Position numbers and translations under genes: made by a program. A stretch of 35,619 nucleotides of DNA. It comes from an uncultured Clostridia bacterium (lineage in GTDB: Bacteria; Bacillota; Clostridia; Oscillospirales; Acutalibacteraceae). The stretch is from contig CALJJF010000124.1 of the NCBI GenBank assembly GCA_937973935.1, forward strand, positions 1 through 35,619, given 5' to 3'. The notes under the pieces are model-generated. The model did no database searches. It had not been told where the DNA came from and saw nothing but the letters and a program-made list of their open reading frames with translations. Positions 15,397-34,002 of the stretch are shown piece after piece (positions within the stretch are counted from its first letter, which is position 1; each line of letters begins with the position of its first letter).

Positions 15397-16146
15397 TTAA
15401 TTGATAATTTCGCTCTTGCTTTTTGCTAAATTTTCACGCCATTTGCTTAGTTCCGTTGTTGTCAGTTTCGTCCACTCTGTTTCCTCACCAATAATTTTTA
15501 AAGGTTCTTCTGAGCGATAAGAACGTGTTAAGTTACCTGGAAATTTTTTATCCGTAACATTAGGGTCGTTTTCAAATTCACCTGTTGGTTCTATTATATA
15601 AACGCGTTCAATTCCTTCTCCTTTTGCGAATGCCGCTGCTAGTCCTGCGGCATTGGTATTCGCAGTGAAATAAATGTGATTCATTTGAAGCTCAGGCTTA
15701 TAATTTGAGATTCCACCCGCTGTCAGTAAATCACCAACCTTTAAATCTGCCTTCGTCCCATGATAAAACGGTCCTTTATCAGAAGGCGGACCTTTATATA
15801 ATTCAGATAATTCATAATTTCTTTTGGCATTATCAAAGTCACACAATTTTTCATAGCATTCTGAAATATTTGCATATAGAGTTGAGTATGCACTCGTTAC
15901 GTTATCGTCATTTATATTTAGTGCACACTGTAAAGATGTTTCCATCCATTTCAATTTGTCTGAAATATTCTTTTGTTGACGGGCTAAATGGTAAGCTGCA
16001 ATAAATTTTCCATAGTCATCTGTTGCGTCATTCCATGCTTGATAAAACATGGTGCTTGCTTCTTCTAAATTGCCAATATCTTCAAAGCTCATCCCCATTA
16101 CGCATAGTTTAACAACAACGTTATTGGGATCGAATTTTATACTCAT
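15397..16146 (-). CDS. arr: Arr-family NAD+-dependent (rifamycin-type) ADP-ribosyltransferase fused to an approximately 120-aa helical N-terminal domain
   Basis: The C-terminal half reads GPFYHGTKADLKVGDLLTAGG...HIYFTAN...RVYIIEPTGEFENDPNVTDKKFPGNLTRSYRSEEPLKIIGE. It tracks the Arr signature (GPFYHGTKA..GDLL, HIYF, VEPTG.FEDDPN.T.K.FPGNPT.SYR..EPL.I.G) almost residue for residue. Confidence 0.85.
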   Translation of the reverse strand: MSIKFDPNNVVVKLCVMGMSFEDIGNLEEASTMFYQAWNDATDDYGKFIAAYHLARQQKNISDKLKWMETSLQCALNINDDNVTSAYSTLYANISECYEKLCDFDNAKRNYELSELYKGPPSDKGPFYHGTKADLKVGDLLTAGGISNYKPELQMNHIYFTANTNAAGLAAAFAKGEGIERVYIIEPTGEFENDPNVTDKKFPGNLTRSYRSEEPLKIIGEETEWTKLTTTELSKWRENLAKSKSEIIN

Positions 16147-18817: not shown

Positions 18818-18926
18818 ACGTCTATATCCTTTCTATTTGCATTTATCATTCCTTGACATCAAGACAACCGTCTCAACATGGAACGATAGCATCAGATTGA
18901 TGTCTGGTATGTGTTTTTGGTTTTAT

Positions 18927-19030
18927 CCGTTCGTGGGAATATGTCCATAGCGATTTTTAGGGGCGTTCCCGTTCGTGGAAACATATCAACATTATATTGC
19001 ATCTCTTGTCCGTTCTCGGGAACATGTCGA
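18927..19030. repeat. Three phased direct repeats of about 21 bp
   Basis: CCGTTCGTGGGAATATGTCCA at 18927, CCGTTCGTGGAAACATATCAA at 18969 and CCGTTCTCGGGAACATGTCGA at 19010. The spacing is 42 and 41 bp. Each unit carries a GTTC-N4-GAA(C/T)-like core. Confidence 0.75.
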
Positions 19031-19083
19031 TAATTCGCACATTTATTGCTGCCATTCAATTATCCACCCAATTCTCGTATTGC

Positions 19084-20478
19084 TTAATCTTCATTATCTA
19101 CATCTGCCGTTTGCGGTTTCGGTAAATAGTAATACTTACCTTCCTTAATGATAAGTTCCACATCTTCAGCATAGACATCCCTCGGCTGTTCCGTTTTTCC
19201 AATTATGTGGTTGGCTTGAGAGGCTATCTCTTGGGCTATAGCTTTCTTGATAGCTTTATAATTGTGCTTTTCGTCTATCCAACCCAACGGAATCGAAATA
19301 ACAGCTTTAATACCTGTCTTTGCAACCCGTTCCTTACTCAAATCAATCCTTAACGCATCGACCTGCTTGCTGTGCCATTCGCTTAGAAGTGTTCGGGTTT
19401 GCTCCGACATCTCTGTGTATTTATTGTAAAGAGCGTAGCTTTGTTCAGTTGATATAGTGCATTTCCCCAATAAATACGTTAGCTTGCTGATTTCTTCAAG
19501 AACTGCCGCTAACACATTTTGAAACCCTACTAAGGTTTTTAACTCCTCAACTACGGACTCGTATTCTTTATAGTCGGGGTTGGGGTTCTTTTTCGTAATG
19601 TCAGTTATCGTAATATTCACTTGACCCAAGAGTTCGGTGGCGGTAGCCTTTATACCCTCTAAGGCAGAAAGTTTAAGTTTTCGCTGACTGTCGTCCTCCA
19701 ATATCTCTGTGCTAAACTGAGAAATCTCGCTGACGAGGGTTATCACGGACAGGATTCGGCTCTTAAACTCTCTATCTTGAAAGTCACTGATTTTACTGAT
19801 GCTTTTCGTCAATGCTTCTAACTTAGAATCGATTAAGGACATATAGTATTGACCGACAACCAGAGAGGCAACATTCATCACATTGGCCGCCACGTTTGCT
19901 ACCTTGGCTGTTTTCGCAATATTTGCTGGAACAACTTCACTCGCTTTCTGTGCCGTCACAGGGACAAGATTTGCTTGACCTTTTATTCCTTTTGCACCGT
20001 GAAAAATAGCCCGCTTTGCACCTTCCATTGCTTGGGAATCAGTAAGTTTGGCACCGGCAGGAATAACAGCCCTATAAATATTTCCAGATTGCAGTGCTTG
20101 GTTAGTCTTCTGTATCGCGACGTTTGCAGCTTTTGCGGTTTGTTGCAACGCAGCGTTCGTGGCATTGGAGGTCAGTGTTCTGTTTGCTATTTCGGCAACA
20201 GCAGGAAGCGTCTGTGATATGCGGGCAACTACCGAGCAGTCTTTGATTTCGACCAGACTGTTTTCATCAATCTGCGTTGTGGTAGGTAGGAGTTCAATTG
20301 GTATAGATAATTCTCCAACATGCTTTCCCGTAGCTGCCAACATATCGGTTGGCGTAGCTCGCTCTGTGCTTTCAGCATTGCAAAGAACAGAGCTTGTCCT
20401 TTTTCGCAAGAAAACAACCACAACCGCGATTGCGGTTATGGCAATTACCACTAATGCTATCGGCAATATGTATTCCAT
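19084..20478 (-). CDS. Membrane-anchored coiled-coil protein (unknown family); last gene of the defence-like operon
   Basis: The 464-aa ORF has RBS AGGAG 9 nt upstream. N-terminal TM helix YILPIALVVIAITAIAVVVVFL. An Ala/Asn/Val-rich segment includes a second hydrophobic stretch, VANVAANVMNVASLVVGQYYM. A long helical C-terminal region follows. Confidence 0.7.
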   Translation of the reverse strand: MEYILPIALVVIAITAIAVVVVFLRKRTSSVLCNAESTERATPTDMLAATGKHVGELSIPIELLPTTTQIDENSLVEIKDCSVVARISQTLPAVAEIANRTLTSNATNAALQQTAKAANVAIQKTNQALQSGNIYRAVIPAGAKLTDSQAMEGAKRAIFHGAKGIKGQANLVPVTAQKASEVVPANIAKTAKVANVAANVMNVASLVVGQYYMSLIDSKLEALTKSISKISDFQDREFKSRILSVITLVSEISQFSTEILEDDSQRKLKLSALEGIKATATELLGQVNITITDITKKNPNPDYKEYESVVEELKTLVGFQNVLAAVLEEISKLTYLLGKCTISTEQSYALYNKYTEMSEQTRTLLSEWHSKQVDALRIDLSKERVAKTGIKAVISIPLGWIDEKHNYKAIKKAIAQEIASQANHIIGKTEQPRDVYAEDVELIIKEGKYYYLPKPQTADVDNED

Positions 20479-20631
20479 CGCATATTACTCCTGTCTTTAG
20501 GTCTTAAATTTCGGCTTAATCAGGTCATAACTTCATAACCGTCCACGCACCTGCGTCCGCTATATCGTAAAATGGGTAATCCTCGTAAGCAGCGGGGATT
20601 GTAAGGCAGAGATCGATGAGGTCTTGTCGGG

Positions 20632-23600
20632 TCATACATTTTCGTCCTCCACTCCAATTTGACAACGTACTGTGTAGTTGTCTCCCGTGATGCTAAATTT
20701 CGAATTGCAAAAACGATCTTCGCCATCGGCATAATTAAACAAATCTGAGAGCCGATAGATTTTACGTTCGTCCTCGCTCATTACAGCGGTCACTAAAACG
20801 ACCTCATATTGTTGCGGATGTGCTTCTGCAAAGTTCAATTCATTTTCTGTAATTACAAATGTAATTCCCGTCCCCGCAGCGGACTTAATTTCAACATAAA
20901 TGGTTTCGCCGTTTTCGTTGGAATACTTGAGGTCGTAACCCAAACCGCCGATACCATCAGGATTGATTCCTTCTTTTTTTGCGTTTTCCGAAACCCATAC
21001 AACATTCTTGAAGGTTGATTTCATTTCTTCATATACGAGTTTTTCAGCAAAGGCTCCCCAATCTGAAATATTACGTTCTCGCTTCATTCCAGCCATGCGG
21101 CTTCCATTACGTGCTGTGTGACCTGTGTTATTGGCAGAGTTGTTTGGCGGAGCAACAACGTTAACCGATATTATCGGTACGGATGCTACGGAAGCTGTGT
21201 TTAAGATTCTTGCTTCTTGCGCTTGTGCATTGTCAATGTCAGTCTTTCTGGCATTATAGGCCTTGTTCAACTCTTCAAGATTACCAAAGTACAATAAACT
21301 CTCCAACTCTGAATCAACGAGCATATCATTTACAATTGACATTTCCTTATCTTGCACAAAGATTTCTTTATTCGCTTTCCATGCCATGTTTGCGTCCTCG
21401 TCAGACTCTGACGAAATCACGCTCCCAAACTGTTGTGTAAACTCAGCTTCCCAATCGTAATTGATGCTATTTGGAGGGTTGAAAGGGAATGCCTTGTATT
21501 TATCCAATTGCTTTAAGAATGTGCGCTGCACGCTAACAGGTTCGTTTTTAAGCATTGCAAACAATCCGTTTTTATATGAATTACTTTCGTCATTTGCCCG
21601 TTTTTGTAAACACTCAAGATAAAAAGGAGTCAAGTCTACGATGGCCTCGGATTTTTCATTGAAATCATCGACATCAACTTTTAAGCCGCGTAAGACATTA
21701 ATAAGTGACACTGCATTTGCCGTTGAGTTAAAATCAGCAAAATTTATAGAGTCAATGTCAGGTTCAATTGATGCAGTGCTGTCCTCACCGGCAATAAGGA
21801 TGCAAGCCGAAAGAAACATTTCTTTTTCGGATTGTGTACGATTGAGGATATCACGAGACCTTTCGAGAATGCTTAAATCATCATAATCGTGTATTATTAA
21901 AGCGTTCCGATTGTGCGGTTCCTTCTCATATAAGGAGCGTACATACCCAAAAAGAGTGTCGTCCTGAATATCAATAGCCGTCATAAAAAGTTCAGCAATT
22001 GCGGAACAGAAATCAACATTACTTTTTAGCTGTTTCAAACTTCCACCATTTCTTGGAGCCTGAACATAAACACAGTTTCTACCCCTGATATATGAACTGT
22101 CAGCTAGTACAACCTCGCCTTTGCCGTAGTCGGCTTTTATGTAGGTACACAAACGAACCTTCAACGCCTTCACGGTAGAGATTTCACTTTGCTTTGCAGT
22201 ATCGACACGCGAGCAAAAAGCATAACAAATGAAATCGTTAAAATCTTGTTCAAAGGCAATGCTCTCTGGGTGAATGCCTGGCTCTCCGATTACAGACCCC
22301 TTGACCTTTAATGGTGACACTCCAAAATATCTCTTGATATTTTCTTGGCTTTGCCTGCTTGGTATGGCAATCAAGTTAAAGTCCTTTAGTATTTCACGAC
22401 TTACCGTCTTTTCATTGAGATAGTGAACATCCTTTATTGCCAAATATGTTTTTGAGGATTTACAATACACATTTCCACTTTGTAAAAACTCGCGACATTT
22501 TGCGTTGTTAGGATCGAAGTTCCTCAGACCGCCTGACTTCAAAATAGATGTATAAAGAGCCTTGCTTATCTCGCCACCTTCATCAGCTACAGGCAATGCC
22601 AATAACAATGAATATAGCGTTCCTGTATCTAAGTCTGAATAGTCTGATGCAACACCTATCTGCTCCAAAATATCCTGAACGGCATTTGCTTCTGCGATTC
22701 TGCGGTTATAATTATCGATGAATAAGTCCAAATTAGGCGCGACAACTATAGGAGCAAATAATGTGCCAATTTTACTCACAAACAAACATTGCTTCGGAGA
22801 ATATCGGACACCCTCAACCTCTATCCAATTGCTTGTTGCAAAGGTAAAACGAAGGTGCGAAGCTAACTGCTCGCCGCTGATAGCTCTAAATTTTTGTTGA
22901 TACAAATTATCGACGTAAGCACGGCTTGTGCTTGGCTCATAATCAGATAGCAATTGTCGGAGATTCTCGTCATGTCGAATCCAATCAATTATGCTTTTGG
23001 TATTTGCTTTCTCAAGAATTTCATCAAGACGTTCAACCGTAGCAATTTCTACGTATCTGAGAGATGCACTGCGAAATTCCTGTTCGTTATGATAACGGTT
23101 GTCCTCTGCGAGCAGCGGGTATTTTTTTATACTTGTATATATGAGTTCTCTATAAGCTTCTGGAATTGGACGAATTGTCATTTTAGTTTTTCGCGGGAAC
23201 TGGGCAACGCCTAACGCCAACAAAAATTCTCTATACTGCTGTTTTGTCAATTCGGTTAAGGCTATTCGCTTGGGTATTGAAACAAAAAGGCTATCGTTGC
23301 TATCAAACAAATTTTCAGTTACTTCATTATCGAACTCTTGCCCGAAATATAATTCGTTTGCGTTTTTCGCTTCGCCTTTGCGATTTATCAATGGAATCGT
23401 CGTTAATGCAGACATTTCGTTTTTCAAAACGTTTGCTTTCCATAGCTTCCATAACCACTCGACAGTGTCTTCATAGCACCCTCTAGTTTTCTTGCTCGTT
23501 TGGTGTGCACGGCTTCTTAAGCGAGATATGACCGCGTTAATAATGTTTCCAAGGTTATATTCACGAACATTGAATTTCGAGAGCTCAATGGCAAGGCCTC

Positions 23601-25221
23601 TCAATGTGCTTTCTTTCCCCTGCAAGTCGCGCAAAGCACTCACGAGGTCTTTATTCATGAAAACGATTTTCGTAAAATCAGGTGGAGACGAAAAGTCAAC
23701 ATTTTCTGCTGGTAAGAATACTTGTTGACCATCGGTTACAGCATTGCCGCTACTATCTAATACAAAATGCGGCTTATTCTCTGAGGAAATCTCGTTACGG
23801 TACTCATTGATAAATGTAAGCCATAAAGCTGCCCTCTCTCGGATTTGAAGAGTCGGTAAAATAGAATTGATTCCCGTCGTTATATCACTGTATTGATACC
23901 GCATACCTACTTTTCTATGCTTTGCAATGGATTTAATCATGGTTCTTATCGCAGTATTATCCGTTGGAGGCATTAGTGACGAGAATGCATCTCCACTTAA
24001 AAAATCCGCAATATCACTATCATAGAATCGTGGTTTTTCAGCAAATTTAATATATTTGTTGCCCACCGTAGGAAAAACATTGCTCGCAGCAACTGCTTCC
24101 AGATAATAGTCTTTGATAACGAAGTCGTCCCAACTCAAGTCAATTGGGAAATCCCCTACCGTTGATAGCAAGGCGAGCGGGGCGTAATTAACGCTTTCAG
24201 TGGTTGTTATCAAGGCAAGATCAACAAGCGTATCACAAATAACTTTGAGTATGTGTTTATTAGCCTCTGTTTCATCGAGGTGGTTTCTGTCTGCATTTAA
24301 GTCAAACGTTGCATGAACGAGAGCATGGACAGGAAATTGTACCTTTGTCTTGAAATAGCTGTATAAAACGTCCGGAACAACAGACATATCCTCTTTGTAG
24401 GCGACCATCACGCCATATTTTTGTTTCTCAAAACTGCCCTCTCGGGATAGGATAGACCAATTGTCGGTTTCAACGGTTTCGCCATTTCTGTTTGTCGTAA
24501 TATGTATATCGATAATACCATTTTCACGTTCCGAAGGGGTCTTTTTATAAACAAAAAAATCTCCACTATATTCTATCGTCAGCTTCTCCAGCTTCTCTAA
24601 AAACAGAAGGGTTTTTGAATTGATTTGTTGTAGCTGACCAATAACTTTTTCAACAACATCAGATTTCAATTCGACCTCGATTACTGTGTCATATTCTTTA
24701 TTATTCAAGGGCGAAATTAATCGAGGAGCAACAAGTGTCGCAATCTGCACATCATCATGTGTTTTACAAAACTCAGCAACATCATCATTTTCAAGCAATT
24801 CAACCAGCGTTGCACGAGCATAGATTTCGGAAAATTCAACGGACAAATCACCACTATAAATGCGGACACGGTCTGCCCAGTTTAGTATGGAACGAAAACC
24901 AGTACCTTTGTTGCCGATATATTCATTTTTGTTATGCTTCGGGCTGAGATTTGAATACATCAATGAAATAAAACCTTCAAAAGAGAATACGCTTCCGTTA
25001 TTGCTTATTGTCAGTATATTACCTTTCAAAACAATAGAAACAGAGCGGTCATCTGTACCGCCGAGTTCGTCGACTGCGTTTTGAAGCAGTTCTAATAGTT
25101 CCCGACCATGATAACCGCGAATTTCAGCCGTTTCTTTTCTGTAATCCGATAATATAAGGTTAGGGTCAAGAATATAACCTTTTTTCCTAATCTCTATTTG
25201 ACGTGCCACTTTATCGTTCAT
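20632..25221 (-). CDS. Giant NO-VEIN-like protein: N-terminal GHKL (Bergerat-fold, sacsin/MORC-like) ATPase, long unassigned middle, C-terminal DUF3883/NOV_C nuclease-fold domain
   Basis: The 1529-aa ORF has RBS GGAGAA. The N-box is ELLELLQNAVDE at residues 41-52, and the G2-like box is IGNKGTGFRSIL. The C-terminus reads AEKLVYEEMKSTFKNVVWVSE...GLGYDLKYS...IYVEIKS...FVITENELNFAE...YEVVLV, which matches the DUF3883 pattern GYDI.S...IEVK...S.nE...A...Y.ly.V. Confidence 0.8.
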   Translation of the reverse strand: MNDKVARQIEIRKKGYILDPNLILSDYRKETAEIRGYHGRELLELLQNAVDELGGTDDRSVSIVLKGNILTISNNGSVFSFEGFISLMYSNLSPKHNKNEYIGNKGTGFRSILNWADRVRIYSGDLSVEFSEIYARATLVELLENDDVAEFCKTHDDVQIATLVAPRLISPLNNKEYDTVIEVELKSDVVEKVIGQLQQINSKTLLFLEKLEKLTIEYSGDFFVYKKTPSERENGIIDIHITTNRNGETVETDNWSILSREGSFEKQKYGVMVAYKEDMSVVPDVLYSYFKTKVQFPVHALVHATFDLNADRNHLDETEANKHILKVICDTLVDLALITTTESVNYAPLALLSTVGDFPIDLSWDDFVIKDYYLEAVAASNVFPTVGNKYIKFAEKPRFYDSDIADFLSGDAFSSLMPPTDNTAIRTMIKSIAKHRKVGMRYQYSDITTGINSILPTLQIRERAALWLTFINEYRNEISSENKPHFVLDSSGNAVTDGQQVFLPAENVDFSSPPDFTKIVFMNKDLVSALRDLQGKESTLRGLAIELSKFNVREYNLGNIINAVISRLRSRAHQTSKKTRGCYEDTVEWLWKLWKANVLKNEMSALTTIPLINRKGEAKNANELYFGQEFDNEVTENLFDSNDSLFVSIPKRIALTELTKQQYREFLLALGVAQFPRKTKMTIRPIPEAYRELIYTSIKKYPLLAEDNRYHNEQEFRSASLRYVEIATVERLDEILEKANTKSIIDWIRHDENLRQLLSDYEPSTSRAYVDNLYQQKFRAISGEQLASHLRFTFATSNWIEVEGVRYSPKQCLFVSKIGTLFAPIVVAPNLDLFIDNYNRRIAEANAVQDILEQIGVASDYSDLDTGTLYSLLLALPVADEGGEISKALYTSILKSGGLRNFDPNNAKCREFLQSGNVYCKSSKTYLAIKDVHYLNEKTVSREILKDFNLIAIPSRQSQENIKRYFGVSPLKVKGSVIGEPGIHPESIAFEQDFNDFICYAFCSRVDTAKQSEISTVKALKVRLCTYIKADYGKGEVVLADSSYIRGRNCVYVQAPRNGGSLKQLKSNVDFCSAIAELFMTAIDIQDDTLFGYVRSLYEKEPHNRNALIIHDYDDLSILERSRDILNRTQSEKEMFLSACILIAGEDSTASIEPDIDSINFADFNSTANAVSLINVLRGLKVDVDDFNEKSEAIVDLTPFYLECLQKRANDESNSYKNGLFAMLKNEPVSVQRTFLKQLDKYKAFPFNPPNSINYDWEAEFTQQFGSVISSESDEDANMAWKANKEIFVQDKEMSIVNDMLVDSELESLLYFGNLEELNKAYNARKTDIDNAQAQEARILNTASVASVPIISVNVVAPPNNSANNTGHTARNGSRMAGMKRERNISDWGAFAEKLVYEEMKSTFKNVVWVSENAKKEGINPDGIGGLGYDLKYSNENGETIYVEIKSAAGTGITFVITENELNFAEAHPQQYEVVLVTAVMSEDERKIYRLSDLFNYADGEDRFCNSKFSITGDNYTVRCQIGVEDENV

Positions 25222-25336
25222 TTATACGTTCTCCAAACCCCTTTTTTCCCTATAATGTGCTAAAAACTCATCACTCACAATAATTGAAGTTCATTCGTCG
25301 TTAGATGATTTCTCCTATAAAAATTATTTCGTATAC

Positions 25337-26284
25337 TTATTCCCCGGCAGGCAAGACAAAATATGAGGTAGGTTGCATAAGCCATCCATCCGACTCAATT
25401 ACAGACTTTGCCGGATTTCGGATTACAGTTGGGCTGTAGTCGGGTTGGTTAAGGCTGTCGGCATTAACCAAGTAAAGGTAGTATTTATCTCCATACAACG
25501 TAGCTACTTCAATTTCATTCTTAGACCAGTAAAAGTGTGGCTGCCCGGTATAGGATTTAACTTCGATGAACCGGTCGTACTCAGAGGATGCCTCTCCTTC
25601 AAACGAAACTATGTCGAAACCAGCCGAAACGTCAATATCAGATATCCTTTTTATCTTTTGGACTATCGGACTGCTCGCAAGACGTGTCGTTTCATATTTC
25701 AGCACATACTCCTCGGCGGCTTCACCTTGCTGTTCTTGCTGTTCCATTTGCTTTTTCAAGGCTTCGAGAGAAAGCTTTCGCTTTGTGCTTTTTCGTACCT
25801 TGGCGAAAAGAGACTCGTAATGTTCACTAAGCTCCAATGAACCGTCTTGTCGTTCTGATAGGGCGTGAAGTTGTATAAGAACATTTCTGAAAACAGCGGC
25901 GGCAATTGGAAAGCCGTGCTTCTGAATATGGTACCTTTCTTTTAAAACGTCAAACCGCAGAGCGTTAGTATCAAGGATTGTATCTGCTATGATTTTATTA
26001 AGGCAAGCCATACATAGCATTTCTTCAAATCCACCGCCAAGCAGGGAGTACAATTTTTTGCCCTCATCTGTTGGTATTAGTGAATTTTCAGAAACACTAA
26101 TAAAGCCCAAGTATTCAAAAAAGGTTACCGCACCGCTAAAGTTAATTCGCATATCGTTCACAAATGAACATATCTGCCGTGCCGATTCCCTCTTGATTTC
26201 GTCACCTTTGAGGATGGTACTGGCAAAGTGCAGAATTCCCTGCGAATCACCTATTGTATTAATCCGCCTTAGTTCTTCTTGCAT
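25337..26284 (-). CDS. DUF3883/NOV_C-domain protein with an unassigned N-terminal half
   Basis: The 315-aa ORF has the C-terminus GEAAEEYVLKYETTRL...SAGFDIVSFEG...RFIEVKSYTG...FYWSKNEIEVATLYGDKYYLYLV. Its start overlaps the 3' end of the SNF2 gene by 26 nt. Confidence 0.72.
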   Translation of the reverse strand: MQEELRRINTIGDSQGILHFASTILKGDEIKRESARQICSFVNDMRINFSGAVTFFEYLGFISVSENSLIPTDEGKKLYSLLGGGFEEMLCMACLNKIIADTILDTNALRFDVLKERYHIQKHGFPIAAAVFRNVLIQLHALSERQDGSLELSEHYESLFAKVRKSTKRKLSLEALKKQMEQQEQQGEAAEEYVLKYETTRLASSPIVQKIKRISDIDVSAGFDIVSFEGEASSEYDRFIEVKSYTGQPHFYWSKNEIEVATLYGDKYYLYLVNADSLNQPDYSPTVIRNPAKSVIESDGWLMQPTSYFVLPAGE

Positions 26285-28226
26285 AATCCCTTAGCACCGC
26301 CTTTATATCATCATCTCCACCATCATCAAGGTTGTTGTCAAAGAGTGGGATGGGCATACTCTCAATAATCTCCAGCAACCTACGCTCCTTTTCGGCAAGC
26401 CTCTCGTGAATGGTTAGGTCGACAGACTCAGCAGAAAGCAAATAGTAATAGTTAGTTACAACATCGTCGCTTAATCCATAACGGTGAATTCTGTCTTTGG
26501 ATTGTAAAAAATGCGCGGCATTAAAAGAACGCTCTAAGTAAATAGCGTTGTGACAAGCCTTATGAAGAGAAATCGACTCAGCCACGGCAAATGGGTTTGC
26601 GATTATCACCTTATAAGGGCAATCATCCTTATGGAACTCCTTGACTATGGCTTCTCGGGTAATTGAGTATTCATCGTCATCCTCGCTTATGCCATCACCC
26701 GCAACCGGCGTAGCTCCGTACAATATTCGAGAATCAATGTCATTTGAAGCAAGATAATCTCGAAGCATTTCTATGTTCTTTATATAGCACGCCCAGACAA
26801 TAGCCTTTTCGCCACGACCAATGATTTCGCGTAAGATATCCTTGACAGCTATATATTTTGCAGGAACTTCTGCCTCTGCATACCGTAATATCTCGTTAAG
26901 CATTTTCGTGTCGTCCTGAACCGTATCAAAGTCTACATCTTCAACATCAGCAAACTCAGATAATGGCTGACGAAGAAGCGCAGGATTAGTTGATGCCTGC
27001 ATAAGTCTAATCAGCCTTGCTCTAACCAGTTCGTTTTGAAAACGTTGGTCACGACTATTGGCAATGTCAAAAATATACTTCCTCTCAATATAATCGTATA
27101 TACGCCGTTGTGTTTCACCCATCTCCACTACCATTGGTGGGTTATTGACAGCGGGTGGAATGCCAAGGTCGCTCTTCCTAATCCTTATAAAAAACGGGGA
27201 TATGGAATTAAGCAATGAATCAACCCTTGGGTCATTTGGAGTCCTCGACATATCTTTCAACTGCCCAATATGAAAACGGACAATTTCTTTCGTCGGCCAG
27301 ATAAACTTAAACAAATTGTACAAGTCTTCATAACCGTTCGGTGCAGGTGTACCAGTGAGTACGACTCTCGCCTTACAATCCTGTGCCAATTCCATTATGC
27401 TCTGAGCAATGATACCCCCATTGGTATTCTTGATTTTGTGTGCTTCGTCAAGCACAACCATTACCTTATGCTTTTTGAGGAAGAATAGAAGTTCTTGTGT
27501 AAGGGACATAACCGAGGCATAGGAAATCAGCGTCAACTCGGCGGGATTATTCTCATAAAAATATTGTTTTTTATGATCTATTTGAAGTTTACCGGTTAAA
27601 CGCTTTGAAGTTGGTTTTACACCAAAGCACTCCTCATATTCCAGTTCCCAAGGACCAAAAGCGTTTATGGGGCCAATTATCAGCAGTCTGTCTACTTTTC
27701 GAGGATGATCATCCGGCAAATTCTTGAGGTATGTGTAAGCTCCAAAAACAATGCTGGTTTTTCCCGCACCCGGAACTGAAAAGTTGCAAGCATTTTGCGA
27801 GAACGCTAAATGATACGCTGAAAGCATCTGCAAATTGTAGAGGGTTCGAGTGGGCATATTTGCAACGAGCGCATCTTGAAATGCTTGAAATTCGCTAACA
27901 TTGCAATGGTTGTTGCGAATGTCCATAGCTTTAGACGAAAACTCAGCAAACTTGCTCTCTTCCTCGATGTAAGACTGGATACCCTCATTTGCTTCCCCAG
28001 AGATTTCAACATCGCATTTTGCATAACCAGCTGCCGTCCGCACCCTGTCGATACTTTTGTTCAAACTGTCGGTAATAGAAATATAAATCACACTGTCAGA
28101 GAGGATATAGTCGGTATTGTCCTTAAGGAAACGGGCAGCGCGGCGACTTTCTAAGATTTGTCCTACATCCCCAGTGACTATGAGCCGATTGTCGGCTGTA
28201 TTTGAATCAATGTGTAATATGCCCAT
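26259..28226 (-). CDS. SNF2-family (SF2) helicase/translocase with an approximately 130-aa unassigned N-terminal domain
   Basis: Motif I VPGAGKTS, motif II VVLDEAHKIKN, motif III LTGTPAPNGYEDLYNLFKFIWP, and helicase-C with motif VI FLQSKDRIHRYGL. Confidence 0.88.
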   Translation of the reverse strand: MGILHIDSNTADNRLIVTGDVGQILESRRAARFLKDNTDYILSDSVIYISITDSLNKSIDRVRTAAGYAKCDVEISGEANEGIQSYIEEESKFAEFSSKAMDIRNNHCNVSEFQAFQDALVANMPTRTLYNLQMLSAYHLAFSQNACNFSVPGAGKTSIVFGAYTYLKNLPDDHPRKVDRLLIIGPINAFGPWELEYEECFGVKPTSKRLTGKLQIDHKKQYFYENNPAELTLISYASVMSLTQELLFFLKKHKVMVVLDEAHKIKNTNGGIIAQSIMELAQDCKARVVLTGTPAPNGYEDLYNLFKFIWPTKEIVRFHIGQLKDMSRTPNDPRVDSLLNSISPFFIRIRKSDLGIPPAVNNPPMVVEMGETQRRIYDYIERKYIFDIANSRDQRFQNELVRARLIRLMQASTNPALLRQPLSEFADVEDVDFDTVQDDTKMLNEILRYAEAEVPAKYIAVKDILREIIGRGEKAIVWACYIKNIEMLRDYLASNDIDSRILYGATPVAGDGISEDDDEYSITREAIVKEFHKDDCPYKVIIANPFAVAESISLHKACHNAIYLERSFNAAHFLQSKDRIHRYGLSDDVVTNYYYLLSAESVDLTIHERLAEKERRLLEIIESMPIPLFDNNLDDGGDDDIKAVLRDYARRTKAD

Positions 28227-28241
28227 ACTTCACCCACCTAA

Positions 28242-29528
28242 CTATCGTAAAATTTCTCCATATTCCTTAACCTTCTTAGCGATTTCATCAAGGTATTCCT
28301 TTATTCCAGGATCATCTTTGAAAGAATCTTGGCTGGTATCAACCGCAGATATGGCCTCCCATGCTTTCTGAAGCAACTTGATTGGTTCTGCGGCTTGCTG
28401 CTTGTTATTCAATTTATCACGTGAGCGTAGAAAGTTCTCATTCAGTTTTTCACCGACAGCTTCCTTCCATGCGTTATCCCGTGCACGGAGCAGCCGTCCG
28501 ACATCCCCTCCGGGGTTATCGCGAATAATTTCATCAACGGACTTCTCACGAACACCCTCAACCGTCTCAAAATGAGCATCCGCAAATTGCCGCCAAATTT
28601 CTTCATTAGAGAAAAAGCTGGCATCTGTGTTGTTTTTGCTCGGTTTTCTGATGATATCACGAAAATCCTGCTGGTCTAAACCCAAACGAATATAGTCGAA
28701 TGCAATACTTTTTAGGTCAGAAACATCCGCTTCAATGTCATAACCCCACATCTTGGAAACCCCACCGGCGGCATAGCCACGCAAAGCACTGTCCAGCTTT
28801 TGAAAGGAGTCCTCTCTTGTGTCAAGAACTGTATATATTCCCGTGTAACCGTAGGTATCCAAGTATTCATCCATCATCTTAAGGACATCCAGATACATCT
28901 TAACATCTGCAAGTTTAACACCCATAAAGTTGGCAATTTCATTGTTAGAGAATCCCTCACCCGCTAAGTCACCCGCCTTGAGGTATTTTTCTATAGGACC
29001 ATAGTCTACCTTTGCATCCTCGCCCATCTGATATGTAGTCTCAAGGCGTAAAATTTCTTTCCTATCTGCATCTATAGGGAGGATGATAGCTTCGAAGAAC
29101 TGCGTGTGCTGTTTGAGATTGGCAGCAACGCTGTCATCACGCCAAATCCTATTTAATAGGCTGGCACGTCGGTTTCCATCAATTATCTTTCCGTCGGCAG
29201 TGACAATACCATACCGCTGTTGGTGGTCTTCAAGGAGGCTCTGTTTTGTTCGCTCGTTTGCTTCTACCTTAGATTCCCACAAAAATTTTTCAATAAGGGC
29301 AACATCCGCCGGACTATCAGGGTCAAGTGGATGATTCTGACGCTCGTATGATTTGACCACACTCCCTATGCGCCCATTGTACGGGTTGTATGTTAGTATG
29401 CTCAACGGAATTCGATAGGCGTTGAACGTCGTGCGTTCGCCGTGATATGTAAGCGTTATCCCTGTCATACAAGGCTGTGTTGAATCCTGAATCCTCTTGA
29501 GTTCAGCTTTTCTCTGTTCTGCATTCAT
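28242..29528 (-). CDS. ParB/sulfiredoxin-fold N-terminal domain protein with a long helical C-terminal region
   Basis: YRIPLSILTYNPYNGRIGS...YGIVTADGKIIDGNRRASLL matches the ParB N-domain pattern (I.l..l..np.N.R ... G.iiDG.rR). RBS AGGAGG is present. About 300 further residues are unassigned. Confidence 0.65.
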   Translation of the reverse strand: MNAEQRKAELKRIQDSTQPCMTGITLTYHGERTTFNAYRIPLSILTYNPYNGRIGSVVKSYERQNHPLDPDSPADVALIEKFLWESKVEANERTKQSLLEDHQQRYGIVTADGKIIDGNRRASLLNRIWRDDSVAANLKQHTQFFEAIILPIDADRKEILRLETTYQMGEDAKVDYGPIEKYLKAGDLAGEGFSNNEIANFMGVKLADVKMYLDVLKMMDEYLDTYGYTGIYTVLDTREDSFQKLDSALRGYAAGGVSKMWGYDIEADVSDLKSIAFDYIRLGLDQQDFRDIIRKPSKNNTDASFFSNEEIWRQFADAHFETVEGVREKSVDEIIRDNPGGDVGRLLRARDNAWKEAVGEKLNENFLRSRDKLNNKQQAAEPIKLLQKAWEAISAVDTSQDSFKDDPGIKEYLDEIAKKVKEYGEILR

Positions 29529-29543
29529 TGATTAATCCTCCTG

Positions 29544-30473
29544 TTAAAGATAGTATTTTACTATATCACTGATAGTATCAAGCGAGCGAAGATTAAGCAA
29601 ATAATCCGAACATCTATGGATTTTTTCCAAGTCAGCCCGCCGACTTACCCATCCCGCTCCATCAACAACATTAATAAACACAAGCTTTTGCTTGGTGGGC
29701 TTCCCGTTATTTAACTCTCGGATTTTGGAAGCTGTTGTTTCTGCAGTTTTTGCATAATCACTTTGACTGCTTGACGTTGTGATATTGCAAGTAATATCTA
29801 TCAAAAGGCGCGGGGTTTTCTCAGTTGGCACTGCAATCCCGATAGTTCTTCCTATTGATTGAACATTGCCTTTGATAACATATGTCAAACCAGTCTGGTC
29901 ACATATTTCTACAATTTTATCATGCACCGCTTTAAAAAAACTGTCACCTATTCGATTGCTATATTTACCCTCTAAGCCACGCTTAACTAACCGCCTTATA
30001 TCATCTGAGTTTCCTATTCTTCCAACCGTGGATACGTTTATCTGAAAATTTTCGCGATAATATGTTGGAATTAAATTTTTGTATTTTTCAAGAACTGCTC
30101 CATTCAAAAACAGTTCACACACTTCGTCCATAAATTCAGGGTGTTCTATCATTTCCCTTTGGATTTTTGATAGTGACCACTCACTCGTAGGCATATGCTT
30201 CTTTTGAATGCGCGACATTGTAATTATTCTCTTAAAACGCTCTTCCGAAATATTCAAGAGACTTGTGAGGTTATGGAGAGCTTTTTTATTGTCTCGCACA
30301 TATTTTCTAATCCCATCCATTGTTGCTATGCTTGGTGGTATTGATTGAAGTTCCTTAATGTCGGCTTCAGCCAAATTCTCGAATTCTTTTTCCAAATCCG
30401 AGTCAAGGTAGAACATAGTCGCAGTCTTTATAAATTCCTCAACTGTAAGTGCCTTTGGTTTTTGCTGGTTCAT
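29544..30473 (-). CDS. Hypothetical 309-aa protein translationally coupled to the methyltransferase (candidate endonuclease or specificity partner, unproven)
   Basis: The start overlaps the methyltransferase stop as TAATG, a 1-nt overlap. The sequence is protein-like, but I cannot place a catalytic motif by eye. Confidence 0.6.
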   Translation of the reverse strand: MNQQKPKALTVEEFIKTATMFYLDSDLEKEFENLAEADIKELQSIPPSIATMDGIRKYVRDNKKALHNLTSLLNISEERFKRIITMSRIQKKHMPTSEWSLSKIQREMIEHPEFMDEVCELFLNGAVLEKYKNLIPTYYRENFQINVSTVGRIGNSDDIRRLVKRGLEGKYSNRIGDSFFKAVHDKIVEICDQTGLTYVIKGNVQSIGRTIGIAVPTEKTPRLLIDITCNITTSSSQSDYAKTAETTASKIRELNNGKPTKQKLVFINVVDGAGWVSRRADLEKIHRCSDYLLNLRSLDTISDIVKYYL

Positions 30474-31828: not shown

Positions 31829-32066
31829 GCAAGAATTCCTCCGTTTTTGAAGTGTCTTGAACATCCTCGCCAGCAATGTCCATTATATCTCCAACGTTAC
31901 AATTCAGTGCCGTACATATTTTAGCGAGAATTGCCGTGGTGACGTTTTCGTTGCGACCGAGTTTAGCAATGGTAACAGCACTTATATTGGCTGCACTTTG
32001 AAGATCTTGCTTCTTCATATCCATATCTATCAACAGTTTCCACAATTTTTTGTAATTGACTTCCAT
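31818..32066 (-). CDS. XRE-family helix-turn-helix protein (controller-like first gene of the operon)
   Basis: MEVNYKKLWKLLIDMDMKKQDLQSAANISAVTIAKLGRNENVTTAILAKICTALNCNVGDIM is a typical short Cro/C1-type HTH. RBS AAAGGAG lies 8 nt before the ATG at 32066. The 3' end overlaps the methyltransferase start by 11 nt. Confidence 0.85.
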   Translation of the reverse strand: MEVNYKKLWKLLIDMDMKKQDLQSAANISAVTIAKLGRNENVTTAILAKICTALNCNVGDIMDIAGEDVQDTSKTEEFLHDK

Positions 32067-32111
32067 ACACAAATCTCCTTTGCATAGTTATAAGAACAGC
32101 CACACCTCTGT

Positions 32112-32140
32112 AGTATAGCACTTTTCAAAGAATAAATCAA
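32112..32140 (-). promoter_or_regulatory. Candidate sigma-A promoter of the defence-like operon
   Basis: On the minus strand, TTGATT at 32140-32135, a 17-nt spacer and TATACT at 32117-32112, about 45 nt upstream of the HTH start. Confidence 0.5.
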
Positions 32141-32289
32141 TATTTAGCAAGCGGAAGTAAATAATATTTAAGCAATGCTTTAGTTTTATTATACTGGTAA
32201 TAATTTTTCAACTTCTTTAAGTTTAGGGATTGATTTTTTGAATAAGCTATGTTAATATGTATATGAACACATTAACAGGAGGTGCAATT

Positions 32290-32667: not shown

Positions 32668-32670
32668 CTA

Positions 32671-33946: not shown

Positions 33947-34002
33947 TTGCGTCGATTGGTTCTCCTGTTTCCAGCACCCCAAGGAAAAGGAGATGTCAAA
34001 TA

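What the first reader, a model, noticed from the sequence alone, without database searches (positions are those of the whole stretch)
20632..25221. 1529-aa bacterial NO-VEIN-like giant: GHKL ATPase head with an atypical G1 box, about 1,100 unassigned residues, DUF3883 tail
- **N-terminus.** It carries a clear Bergerat N-box (ELLELLQNAVDE) and a G2-type loop (GNKGTGFRSIL). The position where DxGxG normally sits reads ISNNGSVFS, so the adenine-contacting Asp appears replaced.
- **C-terminus.** The last 125 or so residues are a textbook DUF3883/NOV_C module (GYDLKYS...YVEIKS...ENELNFAE...YEVVLV).
- **Middle.** I recognise nothing in about 1,100 residues between the two ends.
- **Interpretation.** An ATP-gated clamp fused to a nuclease-fold domain resembles MORC/paraMORC and sacsin/NOV proteins. 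It is a plausible sensor-effector core for the operon.
Basis: partly seen in the sequence, partly recalled or inferred. Interest (0 to 1): 0.7.

Follow-up and report, generated by a model that had tools for sequence, protein, structure and literature searches.

The report
Tiamat anti-phage protein TmtA
This 1529-residue gene encodes TmtA, the single protein of the already catalogued "Tiamat" anti-phage defence system: an Hsp90/sacsin-type ATPase joined, through about 1,000 residues of unknown fold, to a DNA-cutting domain. It is an ordinary member of a known family whose mechanism nobody has yet worked out.

Summary
The ORF is real: window 20632-25221, minus strand, 1529 aa. The protein matches the PADLOC TmtA model end to end (E=0, 1124 bits). 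It is co-linear with the experimentally verified Bacillus cereus Tiamat protein (33% identity, E 7e-62), which Millman et al. annotated "Hsp90, DUF3684, DUF3883".

The "atypical G1 box" is not a defect. Asn74 and Phe79 are invariant in 115 homologues. They align with sacsin Asn160/Phe164, which are invariant in 110 sacsin sequences and replace Hsp90 Asp79/Met84. The other catalytic landmarks are also invariant or nearly so: E44, N48, D51, G103/G106/G108, R312, and the nuclease set D1430, E1444 (99%), K1446.

Residues 1-340 fold like Hsp90 N-terminal plus middle domains (Foldseek E 1e-9). Residues 341-1357 model confidently but have no structural neighbour in PDB or BFVD. They contain at least three degenerate repeats of about 95 aa.

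The gene is not the core of the local operon. In about 85 loci its neighbours differ. The upstream R-M/SNF2/NOV_C cassette is replaced by a type I R-M system in a 96.8%-identical relative.

Most likely mechanism (inferred): an ATP-gated dimeric sensor that licenses a tethered PD-(D/E)xK nuclease. Known family; low to moderate interest.

The parts
20632..25221 (-). tmtA coding sequence, 1529 aa plus stop codon
   Evidence: ORF list and translation. PADLOC TmtA model PDLC03964: E=0, 1124.4 bits, aa 2-1521 against profile 10-1535/1538.
25114..25221 (-). N-terminal two-helix extension (aa 1-36), a candidate dimerisation 'strap'
   Evidence: AF2 places helices at aa 2-18 and 21-36. Y16 is nearly invariant and E30 is invariant. 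The strap role is an inference from other GHKL proteins.
24562..25113 (-). Bergerat-fold ATP-binding domain of the Hsp90/sacsin type (aa 37-220)
   Evidence: NF047352 scores 59.7 bits against a cut-off of 50. AF2 pLDDT is 89.9. Foldseek matches Hsp90/GRP94 at E 1e-9. hhalign to a sacsin SR1 profile gives probability 96%, E 3e-9.
25066..25101 (-). Motif I / N-box ELLELLQNAVDE (aa 41-52)
   Evidence: E44, Q47, N48, A49 and D51 are invariant in 115 sequences. They align with Hsp82 E33, N37 and D40.
24982..25008 (-). G1-equivalent ISNNGSVFS (aa 72-80), with Asn74 in place of the adenine-contacting Asp
   Evidence: N74, G76 and F79 are invariant. N74 aligns with sacsin N160 and F79 with sacsin F164. 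These correspond to Hsp90 D79 and M84 (PMC9880540).
24883..24915 (-). G2 / motif III GNKGTGFRSIL (aa 103-113), preceded by a short flexible ATP lid (aa ~89-102)
   Evidence: G103, K105, G106, G108, F109 and R110 are invariant. pLDDT dips to 55-67 over aa 91-110.
24202..24561 (-). Hsp90-middle-like beta-sheet domain (aa 221-340) with a candidate catalytic loop DLNADRNHL containing R312
   Evidence: Foldseek alignments of about 400 columns span Hsp90 N+M. R312 and N321 are invariant. The loop lies between strand 301-304 and helix 319-339. R312 aligns with Hsp82 R380, at low statistical weight.
22297..24201 (-). Middle region part 1 (aa 341-975): alpha/beta region with degenerate repeats of about 95 aa (R1 aa 362-455, R2 466-558, R3 586-678, R4 768-862)
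   Evidence: AF2 pLDDT is about 86. No neighbour was found in PDB or BFVD. Profile-profile scores: R2-R3 21.6, R3-R4 23.2, R1-R4 18.5, against control maxima of 11.3 and 15.1.
21151..22296 (-). Middle region part 2 (aa 976-1357): a small beta-rich segment followed by a strongly acidic all-alpha domain
   Evidence: AF2 secondary structure. Family mean net charge is -20. No fold neighbour was found.
21082..21150 (-). Disordered basic linker (aa 1358-1380) that tethers the nuclease
   Evidence: It is the only segment with pLDDT below 50 (model residues 1018-1040). Conservation is low and gaps are frequent. Distant relatives also have a low-complexity linker there.
20635..21081 (-). C-terminal NOV_C/DUF3883 PD-(D/E)xK nuclease domain (aa 1381-1529)
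   Evidence: Pfam PF13020 gives E 5e-12, and E 2.7e-13 when the tail is scanned alone. E1393, D1430, K1446 and E1461 are invariant and E1444 is 99% conserved.

Best explanation
The gene encodes TmtA, the single-protein 'Tiamat' anti-phage defence system. Identity is shown. It is a stand-alone, horizontally mobile defence gene parked in a chromosomal defence island.

Anatomy, as shown here:
- an Hsp90/sacsin-type Bergerat ATPase plus an Hsp90-middle-like domain carrying a candidate catalytic arginine (aa 1-340);
- a module of about 1,000 residues with no known fold relative, which includes at least three degenerate repeats (aa 341-1357);
- a disordered linker (aa 1358-1380);
- a PD-(D/E)xK nuclease of the NOV_C/DUF3883 family (aa 1381-1529).

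Mechanism, as inferred: like other GHKL proteins, TmtA dimerises through its ATP-bound heads. The large middle module is the sensor platform that recognises a phage-derived cue, either a nucleic acid structure or a phage protein. The ATP binding and hydrolysis cycle converts that recognition into licensing of the flexibly tethered nuclease, which then cuts DNA. The target could be phage DNA or, in abortive fashion, any DNA.

My confidence is about 0.95 for the identity and about 0.45 for this mechanism.
For: Identity:
- PADLOC TmtA model PDLC03964: E=0, 1124 bits, full length.
- 33% identity, E 7e-62, co-linear from residue 1 with the first 399 aa held of the verified B. cereus FORC_005 TmtA, listed as 'Tiamat, v, Hsp90, DUF3684, DUF3883' in Millman et al. 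Table S2.
- 114 full-length homologues align without domain loss.

Autonomy:
- Neighbours differ among homologues.
- No neighbour cluster occurs in more than 12 of 80 loci.
- The upstream cassette is swapped in a relative with 96.8% DNA identity.

Head looks catalytically competent:
- E44, N48, D51, N74, G76, F79, G103, G106, G108, F109, T179 and R312 are invariant.
- The fold matches Hsp90 N+M at E 1e-9.
- The verified defence protein also carries Asn at G1.
- Asn replaces Asp in all three sacsin ATPase domains, where modelling keeps the adenine contact (PMC9880540).

Nuclease looks competent: D1430, E1444 (99%), K1446, E1393 and E1461 are conserved.

Tether: the linker at aa 1358-1380 is disordered.

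Precedent: VcSduA has a GHKL head and a PD-(D/E)xK tail, and it loses defence with either an ATPase or a nuclease point mutation (PMC12137116).
Against: - There is no experiment on this protein. It is only 33% identical to the verified Tiamat over the ~400 residues I could compare.
- I found no published test of whether Tiamat needs its ATPase or its nuclease. Reviews up to 2026 list the mechanism as unknown.
- ATP binding by Asn-type sacsin domains is itself debated (PMC9880540).
- No segment is net basic, and the all-alpha segment is strongly acidic. This does not favour a simple DNA-clamp middle.
- The R312 = Hsp90 R380 assignment rests on an alignment of low statistical weight.
- Dimerisation was not modelled.
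- Pfam SACS is below its gathering score: 22-28 bits against 32.8.
Confidence: 0.7

Rival explanations
1. TmtA here is one component of a larger multi-gene system: the first reader's 'core of the operon'. In this view it works obligatorily with the upstream Dcm methyltransferase, DpnII-like endonuclease, 428-aa protein, SNF2 helicase and small NOV_C protein.
For: All these genes are co-directional. No terminator-like site was found in the 115-nt gap upstream of tmtA, and no strong promoter-like site was found there either. DNA shared with relatives begins only 18-28 bp upstream of the start codon. tmtA may therefore be transcribed from upstream here. The small upstream protein carries the same NOV_C nuclease fold.
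Against: None of the five upstream proteins is found beside any of about 85 other family loci. The relative with 96.8% DNA identity has a type I R-M cassette in that position. The five upstream genes are packed tightly (overlaps or 15-nt gaps), whereas tmtA is set apart by 115 nt. The verified Tiamat works as a single gene.
Confidence: 0.06
2. The head and middle act as a chaperone-like protein sensor (Hsp90/sacsin style). TmtA binds a phage protein, for example a folding or assembling structural protein, not DNA. That binding releases the nuclease. This is the same effector logic with a different trigger.
For: The closest structural relatives are the protein chaperones Hsp90, GRP94 and TRAP1, and the closest sequence relative is sacsin. 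The middle region has no basic segment and no recognisable DNA-binding fold. Millman et al. refer to 'chaperon-associated domains' among their systems.
Against: There is no direct evidence. The GHKL members that carry nucleases (MutL, VcSduA/paraMORC, topo VI) act on DNA (and established knowledge of those families). No client-binding motif was identified.
Confidence: 0.2
3. TmtA is a type IV-like, modification-dependent or DNA-structure-dependent restriction enzyme, with the middle repeats reading modified or unusual phage DNA.
For: The family often sits beside R-M systems: type I R-M-like neighbours occur in 12 of 80 loci. In Pseudomonas it shares a hotspot with type IV R-M (PMC12629846). 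The effector is a restriction-endonuclease-fold domain.
Against: No known modification-reader domain (SRA, PUA, YTH, DUF262-type) was detected by Pfam, PADLOC or fold search. The middle region is not basic.
Confidence: 0.12
4. The Asn-for-Asp head is a pseudo-ATPase. It is a purely structural or nucleotide-binding-only dimerisation module, and the protein is a constitutively regulated nuclease or scaffold.
For: The canonical DxGxG Asp is absent. Nucleotide binding by the crystallised sacsin domain has been questioned (PMC9880540).
Against: The catalytic base E44, the Mg ligand N48, the glycine-rich G2 and the candidate arginine finger R312 are all invariant over sequences down to 27% identity. 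That pattern is hard to explain without catalysis. A disease mutation in sacsin abolishes its activity (D169Y, cited in PMC9880540).
Confidence: 0.08

Closest known systems
Tiamat defence system protein TmtA (Millman et al. 2022; verified example from Bacillus cereus FORC_005, 1590 aa)
   Same: Same length class and same order of modules (Hsp90-like head, long middle, DUF3883 tail). Full-length match to the PADLOC TmtA model. 33% identity, co-linear over the 399 residues available, including the NNG, SPK and GxKGTGFRS motifs. Both are single genes in defence islands.
   Different: It is a divergent member from a Clostridia-type metagenome bin and has never been tested. Millman's 'DUF3684' label for the middle could not be reproduced with hmmscan against current Pfam.
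Sacsin (human SACS) Hsp90-like SR1 domain; PDB 5V44-5V47
   Same: Same sub-clade of Bergerat ATPase. It has the N-box, Asn in place of Hsp90 Asp79, an invariant Phe in place of Met84, a short lid, GxxGxGF, and a beta-sheet continuing into a middle-like domain with a candidate catalytic Arg.
   Different: Sacsin is a eukaryotic 4,579-aa protein with three such units plus Ubl, DnaJ and HEPN domains, and it has no PD-(D/E)xK tail. Homology of the TmtA middle to sacsin SR2/SR3 could not be tested, because only exon-sized sacsin fragments were retrievable.
VcSduA / paraMORC3-type Shedu (GHKL ATPase + DUF4263 nuclease), Vibrio cholerae
   Same: Single-protein defence with a GHKL head, a clamp-like middle and a C-terminal PD-(D/E)xK nuclease. 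Both activities are required for defence (PMC12137116). It is the best functional analogue for how TmtA probably works.
   Different: Different GHKL sub-family (MORC/MutL-like with canonical motifs I-IV), a different nuclease family (DUF4263 versus NOV_C), and a much shorter protein (its nuclease Lys is K557, against K1446 here). There is no sequence match to TmtA models.
Plant NO VEIN (NOV) and Pfam NOV_C / DUF3883
   Same: The tail matches Pfam NOV_C above threshold.
   Different: NOV is a eukaryotic nuclear protein involved in development. No NOV sequence was available here, so head and middle homology to NOV was not tested.
MutL (GHKL ATPase plus C-terminal endonuclease joined by a disordered linker)
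   Same: The general logic is the same: ATP-driven N-terminal dimerisation controls an endonuclease held on a flexible linker (established knowledge of the MutL family).
   Different: MutL has a different nuclease fold and canonical DxGxG, is licensed by MutS and the beta clamp, and is a repair protein, not a defence protein. Top structural hits for TmtA are Hsp90-type, not MutL.

Membership tests
Tiamat (TmtA) | Full-length match to a TmtA profile | tested here: met
   PADLOC PDLC03964: E=0, 1124.4 bits, aa 2-1521 against profile 10-1535/1538. Six further TmtA models match the N-terminal 300-800 residues, and one more (PDLC03969) matches only the C-terminal tail weakly.
Tiamat (TmtA) | Homology to the experimentally verified TmtA (B. 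cereus FORC_005) | tested here: met
   BLASTP gives 33% identity, E 7e-62, co-linear aa 1-397 against 1-398 of the fragment held in Millman Table S2. The rest of the verified sequence was cut in the stored file.
Tiamat (TmtA) | Domain order Hsp90-like, then DUF3684, then DUF3883, as annotated by the discoverers | tested here: inconclusive
   The Hsp90-like head is met and DUF3883 is met. DUF3684 was not detected by hmmscan in the query or in six diverse members, even at E up to 10.
Tiamat (TmtA) | Stand-alone single-gene system located in defence islands | tested here: met
   Neighbours vary and are rich in defence genes: type I/III R-M, Gabija-like, dynamin-like, SIR2-pAgo, GmrSD. No conserved neighbour was found in 80 loci. 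The 464-aa downstream gene is an independent family.
Tiamat (TmtA) | Protects cells against phage infection | not testable with these tools
   Needs plaque or efficiency-of-plating assays.
GHKL / Bergerat ATPase superfamily | Motif I (N-box) ExxxNxxD | tested here: met
   E44-x3-N48-x2-D51, invariant in 115 sequences.
GHKL / Bergerat ATPase superfamily | Motif II (G1) DxGxG with the adenine-contacting Asp | tested here: not met
   The sequence reads N74-N-G76-S-V78-F79. The Asp is replaced by an invariant Asn and the second Gly by Val/Pro. The same replacement is seen in sacsin.
GHKL / Bergerat ATPase superfamily | Motif III (G2) GxxGxG | tested here: met
   G103-N-K-G106-T-G108-F109, invariant.
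GHKL / Bergerat ATPase superfamily | Bergerat fold followed by a transducer or middle domain | tested here: met
   AF2 model pLDDT 89.9, pTM 0.86. Foldseek matches Hsp90/GRP94/TRAP1 N+M over about 400 columns, E 1e-9 to 1e-6, probability 1.0.
GHKL / Bergerat ATPase superfamily | ATP binding and hydrolysis | not testable with these tools
   Needs biochemistry.
Sacsin-type Hsp90-like (SR1) clade | Curated profile match | tested here: met
   NCBIfam NF047352 scores 59.7 bits against a cut-off of 50. hhalign to a profile built from 109 sacsin fragments plus the human reference gives probability 96.1%, E 3.2e-9. Pfam SACS is only 22-28 bits, below its cut-off of 32.8.
Sacsin-type Hsp90-like (SR1) clade | Asn at the Hsp90 Asp79 position and Phe at the Met84 position | tested here: met
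   N74 and F79 are invariant in TmtA. They align with sacsin N160 and F164, each 110/110 in sacsin sequences. Table 1 of PMC9880540 agrees.
Sacsin-type Hsp90-like (SR1) clade | Catalytic Arg on a loop between a strand and a long helix of the following domain (sacsin R474 / Hsp90 R380) | tested here: inconclusive
   Invariant R312 lies in the loop at aa 305-318, between strand 301-304 and helix 319-339. It aligns with Hsp82 R380, but the alignment E is only 0.014.
MORC / paraMORC | MORC/MutL-type GHKL with canonical motifs and best similarity to MORC/MutL structures | tested here: not met
   G1 is non-canonical. All 50 listed best structural matches are Hsp90-family chains and none is MORC or MutL. 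No MORC or HATPase_c_3 profile hit was found.
PD-(D/E)xK nuclease, NOV_C/DUF3883 family | Profile match above threshold | tested here: met
   PF13020 scores 46.1 bits against a cut-off of 22.1, E 5e-12, at aa 1393-1488.
PD-(D/E)xK nuclease, NOV_C/DUF3883 family | Catalytic D...(D/E)xK triad conserved | tested here: met
   D1430 is 115/115, E1444 is 114/115 (one Asp) and K1446 is 115/115. E1393 and E1461 are also invariant.
PD-(D/E)xK nuclease, NOV_C/DUF3883 family | Metal-dependent nuclease activity | not testable with these tools
   Needs biochemistry.
NO VEIN (plant NOV) orthology | Homology beyond the C-terminal domain (head and middle) | not tested
Only the Pfam NOV_C match links the two.

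The most novel reading that the evidence does not exclude
The roughly 1,000-residue middle of TmtA (aa 341-1357) would be a new fold class: an array of degenerate hairpin-plus-helix repeats followed by an acidic helical domain, serving as the phage-sensing platform of Tiamat. The whole head-plus-middle unit would be the bacterial ancestor of the sacsin 'SIRPT' repeat unit. The human ataxia protein sacsin and plant NO VEIN would then descend from a bacterial immune nuclease scaffold. The evidence does not exclude this. The region is confidently modelled, has no neighbour in PDB or BFVD and shows calibrated internal repeats. Comparison with sacsin SR2/SR3 or with AlphaFold DB could not be run.
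Probability: 0.3. Interest if true: 0.6.

Novelty: already known. Interest (0 to 1): 0.3.

Why it matters
As an annotation, it matters little. Standard defence-system finders label this gene Tiamat/TmtA, so the window adds one more untested member of a catalogued family.

What remains worthwhile is the family itself. Tiamat is widespread: at least 334 species genomes across many phyla and one archaeon. Its mechanism is unknown. It is also the prokaryotic protein most similar in its ATPase head to human sacsin, whose ATPase competence is disputed.

The invariant residue list derived here gives a ready mutagenesis plan: E44, N48, N74, F79, R312, D1430, E1444 and K1446. Showing that an Asn-type head hydrolyses ATP in TmtA would bear directly on the sacsin debate.

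The analysis also shows that the neighbouring R-M/SNF2/NOV_C cassette is a separate, swappable unit, which prevents a wrong multi-gene system call.

Tried and rejected
1. **Sequence searches against the PDB.** I searched with the whole protein, the N-terminal 340 aa and the family profile. There were no meaningful hits. The LEKTI and reaction-centre matches are short and spurious.
2. **Pfam on the middle region in 330-360-aa pieces at E up to 10.** Nothing was found.
3. **DUF3684**, the discoverers' label for the middle. It was not recovered in the query or in six diverse members, and no paper in the library mentions it.
4. **Foldseek of the 1052-aa middle model.** Best E was 1.3 against the PDB and 0.47 against BFVD, so there are no neighbours.
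5. **Fetching full-length sacsin to test SR2/SR3 homology.** The search returned only fragments of 184 aa or less. They were used instead to build an SR1 profile.
6. **Hypothesis that the conserved 464-aa downstream gene is a TmtA partner.** Rejected. It accompanies only two close relatives. Its large family sits after BREX/Macro or GmrSD, or with no defence gene at all.
7. **Hypothesis that distant relatives swap the effector domain.** Rejected. Relatives matching only aa 1 to about 1,100 still end in a NOV_C-type nuclease.
8. **Five-repeat model of the middle.** Trimmed to three supported repeats and one partial. R5 scores fall within control range.
9. **Search for a basic, DNA-binding-like segment.** None was found.
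10. **Literature search for a Tiamat mechanism.** None was found. Reviews list it as unknown.

Full report
**1. Observation**

The ORF list shows one intact reading frame of 1529 codons at window 20632-25221. It lies on the minus strand, which the finding did not state.

| String | Residues |
|---|---|
| ELLELLQNAVDE | 41-52 |
| ISNNGSVFS | 72-80 |
| GNKGTGFRSIL | 103-113 |
| GYDLKYS | 1428-1434 |
| YVEIKS | 1442-1447 |
| ENELNFAE | 1459-1466 |
| YEVVLV | 1472-1477 |

Curated profiles confirm both ends. NCBIfam NF047352 ('sacsin N-terminal ATP-binding-like domain') scores 59.7 bits against a cut-off of 50 at aa 40-122. Pfam NOV_C/DUF3883 gives E 5e-12 at aa 1393-1488. Pfam SACS is detected only below its gathering score. 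Nothing in Pfam matches aa 341-1390, even at E up to 10.

**2. Identity**

Against PADLOC-DB the protein matches the TmtA model PDLC03964 from end to end: E=0, 1124.4 bits, aa 2-1521 against profile positions 10-1535 of 1538. Six other TmtA models match its N-terminal 300-800 residues, and one more (PDLC03969) matches only the C-terminal tail weakly.

TmtA is the single protein of the 'Tiamat' anti-phage system of Millman et al. 2022. Their Table S2 lists 'SG165, Tiamat, v[erified], Bacillus cereus FORC_005', with TmtA (1590 aa) annotated 'Hsp90, DUF3684, DUF3883'. The 399 residues of that verified protein held in the supplement align co-linearly with the window protein from residue 1, at 33% identity and E 7e-62. 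The alignment includes '…GRQLLEMLQNADDE…', 'LIANNGNPFS', 'SNVSPK' and 'IGHKGTGFRSIL'.

[quoted passage not shown] A 2024 preprint groups Tiamat among single-gene PD-(D/E)xK systems, and a 2026 review lists its mechanism as unknown. I found no mechanistic paper.

**3. The head, and the 'atypical G1 box'**

I aligned 115 full-length family members, down to 27% identity. The following positions are invariant:
- E44, Q47, N48, A49 and D51 (motif I);
- N74, G76, F79 and G83 (the G1 position);
- S93 and K95 (the lid);
- G103, K105, G106, G108, F109 and R110 (G2);
- T179;
- R312 and N321.

The Asn at the place of the canonical adenine-contacting Asp is thus a fixed family character and not decay.

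To see where it comes from, I verified a recalled fragment of human sacsin as identical to PDB 5V44-46. I then aligned the TmtA profile to it. Against the single sequence, probability was 86.6% and E 4.5e-6. Against a profile of 109 sacsin fragments plus the human reference, probability was 96.1% and E 3.2e-9. TmtA N74, V78 and F79 align with sacsin N160, V163 and F164. N160 and F164 are each present in 110 of 110 sacsin sequences.

PMC9880540 (Table 1 and text) states that all three sacsin Hsp90-like domains have Asn for Hsp90 Asp79 and Phe for Met84. It also reports a shorter lid and a putative catalytic Arg (R474) equivalent to Hsp90 R380. The paper notes that ATP binding by these domains has been debated.

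An AlphaFold2 model of aa 1-340 is confident (pLDDT 89.9, pTM 0.86), with a flexible lid at aa ~91-110. Foldseek aligns it over about 400 columns to full-length Hsp90, GRP94 and TRAP1 (E 1e-9 to 1e-6, probability 1.0). The match covers both the N-terminal and the middle domain. No MORC or MutL chain is among the 50 best matches listed.

An hhalign of the TmtA head profile to yeast Hsp82 was also run, with the Hsp82 sequence verified as identical to 2CG9_A. It is statistically weak (E 0.014) but co-linear over aa 35-340, and it places the landmarks as follows:

| TmtA | Hsp82 |
|---|---|
| E44 | E33 |
| N48 | N37 |
| D51 | D40 |
| N74 | D79 |
| G103 / G106 / G108 / F109 | G118 / G121 / G123 / F124 |
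| R312 | R380 |

R312 lies on a loop between a strand (301-304) and a long helix (319-339), as described for the Hsp90 and sacsin catalytic loop.

Conclusion: the head is a sacsin-type Hsp90-like ATPase module with every residue expected for catalysis in that clade. Hydrolysis itself is untested.

**4. The tail**

The last ~150 residues are a NOV_C/DUF3883 PD-(D/E)xK domain. D1430 is 115/115, E1444 is 114/115, K1446 is 115/115, and E1393 and E1461 are invariant. The domain is preceded by the only disordered stretch of the protein, aa 1358-1380. That stretch is basic, poorly conserved and rich in gaps.

More distant relatives that match only the first ~1,000-1,200 residues still end with a low-complexity linker and a NOV_C-type module ('GCDILSF…RFIEVKG…YYLYRV'). 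The architecture is therefore constant, and no effector swapping was seen.

**5. The middle**

An AlphaFold2 model of aa 341-1392 is locally confident (mean pLDDT 86.1). Its pTM of 0.56 is as expected for several domains. It has no significant neighbour in the PDB (best E 1.3) or in BFVD (best E 0.47). The family profile finds no PDB sequence either.

Self-comparison of the family profile suggested a repeat of about 95-120 aa: a beta-hairpin followed by a helix ending in an 'LGV'-like turn. I calibrated this with pairwise profile comparisons against two kinds of control:

| Comparison | Score | E-value | Aligned columns |
|---|---|---|---|
| R2 (466-558) vs R3 (586-678) | 21.6 | 8e-4 | 66 |
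| R3 vs R4 (768-862) | 23.2 | 5e-4 | 66 |
| R1 (362-455) vs R4 | 18.5 | 5e-3 | 36 |
| Reversed-sequence controls, maximum | 11.3 | – | – |
| Other segments of the protein, maximum | 15.1 | – | – |

A fifth proposed unit is not supported. After the repeats come a small beta-rich piece and an all-alpha domain (aa ~1060-1357) that is strongly acidic, with a family mean net charge of -20. No segment is net basic.

Millman's 'DUF3684' label could not be reproduced with hmmscan. I also could not test homology to sacsin SR2/SR3, because only exon-sized sacsin fragments were retrievable.

**6. Context: is it the core of the operon?**

In the window, tmtA follows a tightly packed five-gene block on the same strand:
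- Dcm-type methyltransferase;
- DpnII-like endonuclease;
- a 428-aa protein without any hit;
- SNF2 helicase;
- a 315-aa NOV_C protein resembling PD-T4-1.

These genes overlap or are 15 nt apart. tmtA is 115 nt further on.

Homologues at 96%, 82%, 67%, 58%, 47% and 28% identity sit in quite different neighbourhoods. These include type I R-M; type III R-M with Gabija-like genes and GmrSD; SIR2-pAgo; an integrase; dynamin-like GTPases; and smpB with type I R-M.

In 80 further genomic loci, no neighbour cluster is present in more than 12 loci. Going by protein sizes only, the two most frequent clusters look like type I R-M subunits. None of the window's five upstream proteins is found next to any other family member.

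At the DNA level, the closest relative shares window 18851-25249 (96.8%) and 34003-35267 (91%). It carries a type I R-M cassette in place of window 25250-34002. Shared sequence begins only 28 bp upstream of the tmtA start codon.

tmtA is therefore a stand-alone mobile defence gene next to a swappable cassette slot, and it is not the sensor-effector core of this operon. Whether it is co-transcribed with the cassette here cannot be decided. No convincing promoter or terminator was found in the 115-nt gap.

The 464-aa gene downstream looked like a partner at first: it is 46% identical in the 82%-identical relative's locus and 96.5% identical in the 96%-identical relative's locus. It belongs, however, to a large Clostridia family found after BREX/Macro genes or GmrSD, or with no defence gene nearby. 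It is an independent gene.

**7. How it most likely works**

Shown:
- a conserved, apparently competent Hsp90/sacsin-type ATPase module;
- a conserved, apparently competent PD-(D/E)xK nuclease on a flexible tether;
- a large conserved middle of unknown fold;
- autonomy of the gene;
- family membership in a system shown by others to protect against phage.

Inferred:
- ATP-driven head dimerisation, the general GHKL mechanism;
- sensing of a phage cue by the middle module;
- coupling of the nucleotide cycle to nuclease licensing.

The nearest experimentally supported analogy is VcSduA, which has a GHKL head and a DUF4263 PD-(D/E)xK tail. Mutation of either the ATPase or the nuclease abolishes its defence (PMC12137116). 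MutL offers the same logic in DNA repair (established knowledge of that family).

Whether the cue is DNA or a phage protein is open. The Hsp90/sacsin kinship and the lack of any basic domain keep a chaperone-like protein sensor alive as a rival.

**8. Comparison, novelty and verdict**

The protein is a member of Tiamat/TmtA: the profile, the homology to the verified member, the architecture and the autonomy were all tested and met, and phage protection is not testable here. Its head belongs to the sacsin-type clade of GHKL ATPases. It fails the canonical DxGxG motif for a clade-specific reason and is not MORC-like. Its tail is a bona fide NOV_C nuclease domain.

The 'operon core' interpretation is not, and the 'atypical' G1 is typical for the clade. 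Because standard defence-finder models already label this gene, I rate it as already known, with low to moderate interest (0.3).

The residual interest lies in the family's unknown mechanism, in the fold-orphan middle with its internal repeats, and in the link to the sacsin ATPase question.

Noticed in passing
window 19084-20478 (-): A 464-aa protein with an N-terminal transmembrane helix and no Pfam, PADLOC or NCBIfam hit. It belongs to a large Clostridia family of about 430 aa (at least 388 clusters; some sources call members 'topoisomerase IV' or 'YoxC'). Members lie directly downstream of different defence genes: TmtA here and in L001/L007, GmrSD in L089, and BREX PglZ/BrxL plus a Macro-domain gene in L088. 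It may be an uncharacterised defence-island gene.
   Followed up: partly
window ~20524-20634 (-), overlapping the tmtA stop codon: A 36-codon remnant (MTRQDLIDLCLTIPAAYEDYPFYDIADAGAWTVMKL*) of a YjbR-family gene. The locus L007, with 96.8% DNA identity, has the intact 116-aa gene. The window carries a 211-bp deletion inside it.
   Followed up: yes
window 25250-34002: A swappable defence cassette. It holds a divergent HTH_3 + M78 peptidase pair (32257-33396, +) and an 82-aa HTH_26 gene (31818-32066, -). These are followed by a tight operon of Dcm methyltransferase, DpnII-like endonuclease, a 428-aa protein, an SNF2 helicase (26259-28226) and a 315-aa NOV_C protein (25337-26284; PADLOC PD-T4-1, E 6.5e-18). 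The closest relative has a type I R-M system in the same slot. The SNF2 + NOV_C pair recalls the SNF2-DUF3883 fusions in R-M operons noted in PMC3710099.
   Followed up: partly
window 28242-29528 (-): A 428-aa protein inside the cassette operon with no hit in Pfam, PADLOC or NCBIfam. It contains 'IIDGNRRASLL', which resembles the DGxxR motif of ParB/sulfiredoxin-fold (DndB-like) proteins. That resemblance is from reading the sequence and was not tested.
   Followed up: no
window 22636-24138 (-), TmtA aa 362-862: Degenerate internal repeats of about 95 aa (a beta-hairpin plus a helix ending in an LGV-like turn) in the fold-orphan middle of TmtA. Three units are supported above reversed-sequence and other-segment controls, and a fourth is partly supported.
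   Followed up: yes
window 21151-22296 (-), TmtA aa 976-1357: The segment just before the nuclease linker, mostly an all-alpha domain, is strongly acidic (net charge -23 here, family mean -20), while the linker itself is basic. An auto-inhibitory or DNA-mimicking role is conceivable but untested.
   Followed up: no
Millman et al. 2022 Table S2 (supplement file 11), not in the window: The second Tiamat candidate they tested (Enterobacter sp. ku-bf2, 1429 aa, marked 'x' where the verified B. cereus candidate is marked 'v') keeps a canonical Asp at G1 ('LLLVHDGAPV'), whereas the verified B. cereus protein has Asn ('LIANNGNPFS'). Tiamat sub-families therefore differ at this position.
   Followed up: no
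window 13143-14132 (-) and 15397-16146 (-): A 329-aa protein with a RelA_SpoT nucleotidyltransferase region (small alarmone synthetase-like) lies a few kb beyond the island. Nearby are a gene with an Arr-ms (rifampin ADP-ribosyltransferase) hit and an AraC/GyrI-like regulator. Whether the RelA_SpoT protein is a toxSAS/CapRel-type defence gene was not examined.
   Followed up: no
L063 (Halorubrum amylolyticum) and L053 (Entomospira plasmid p22): Family members occur in a haloarchaeon and on a small spirochaete plasmid. Sixteen PLSDB plasmids carry relatives, annotated only as 'DUF3883 domain-containing protein' or hypothetical. This is consistent with wide horizontal spread.
   Followed up: no
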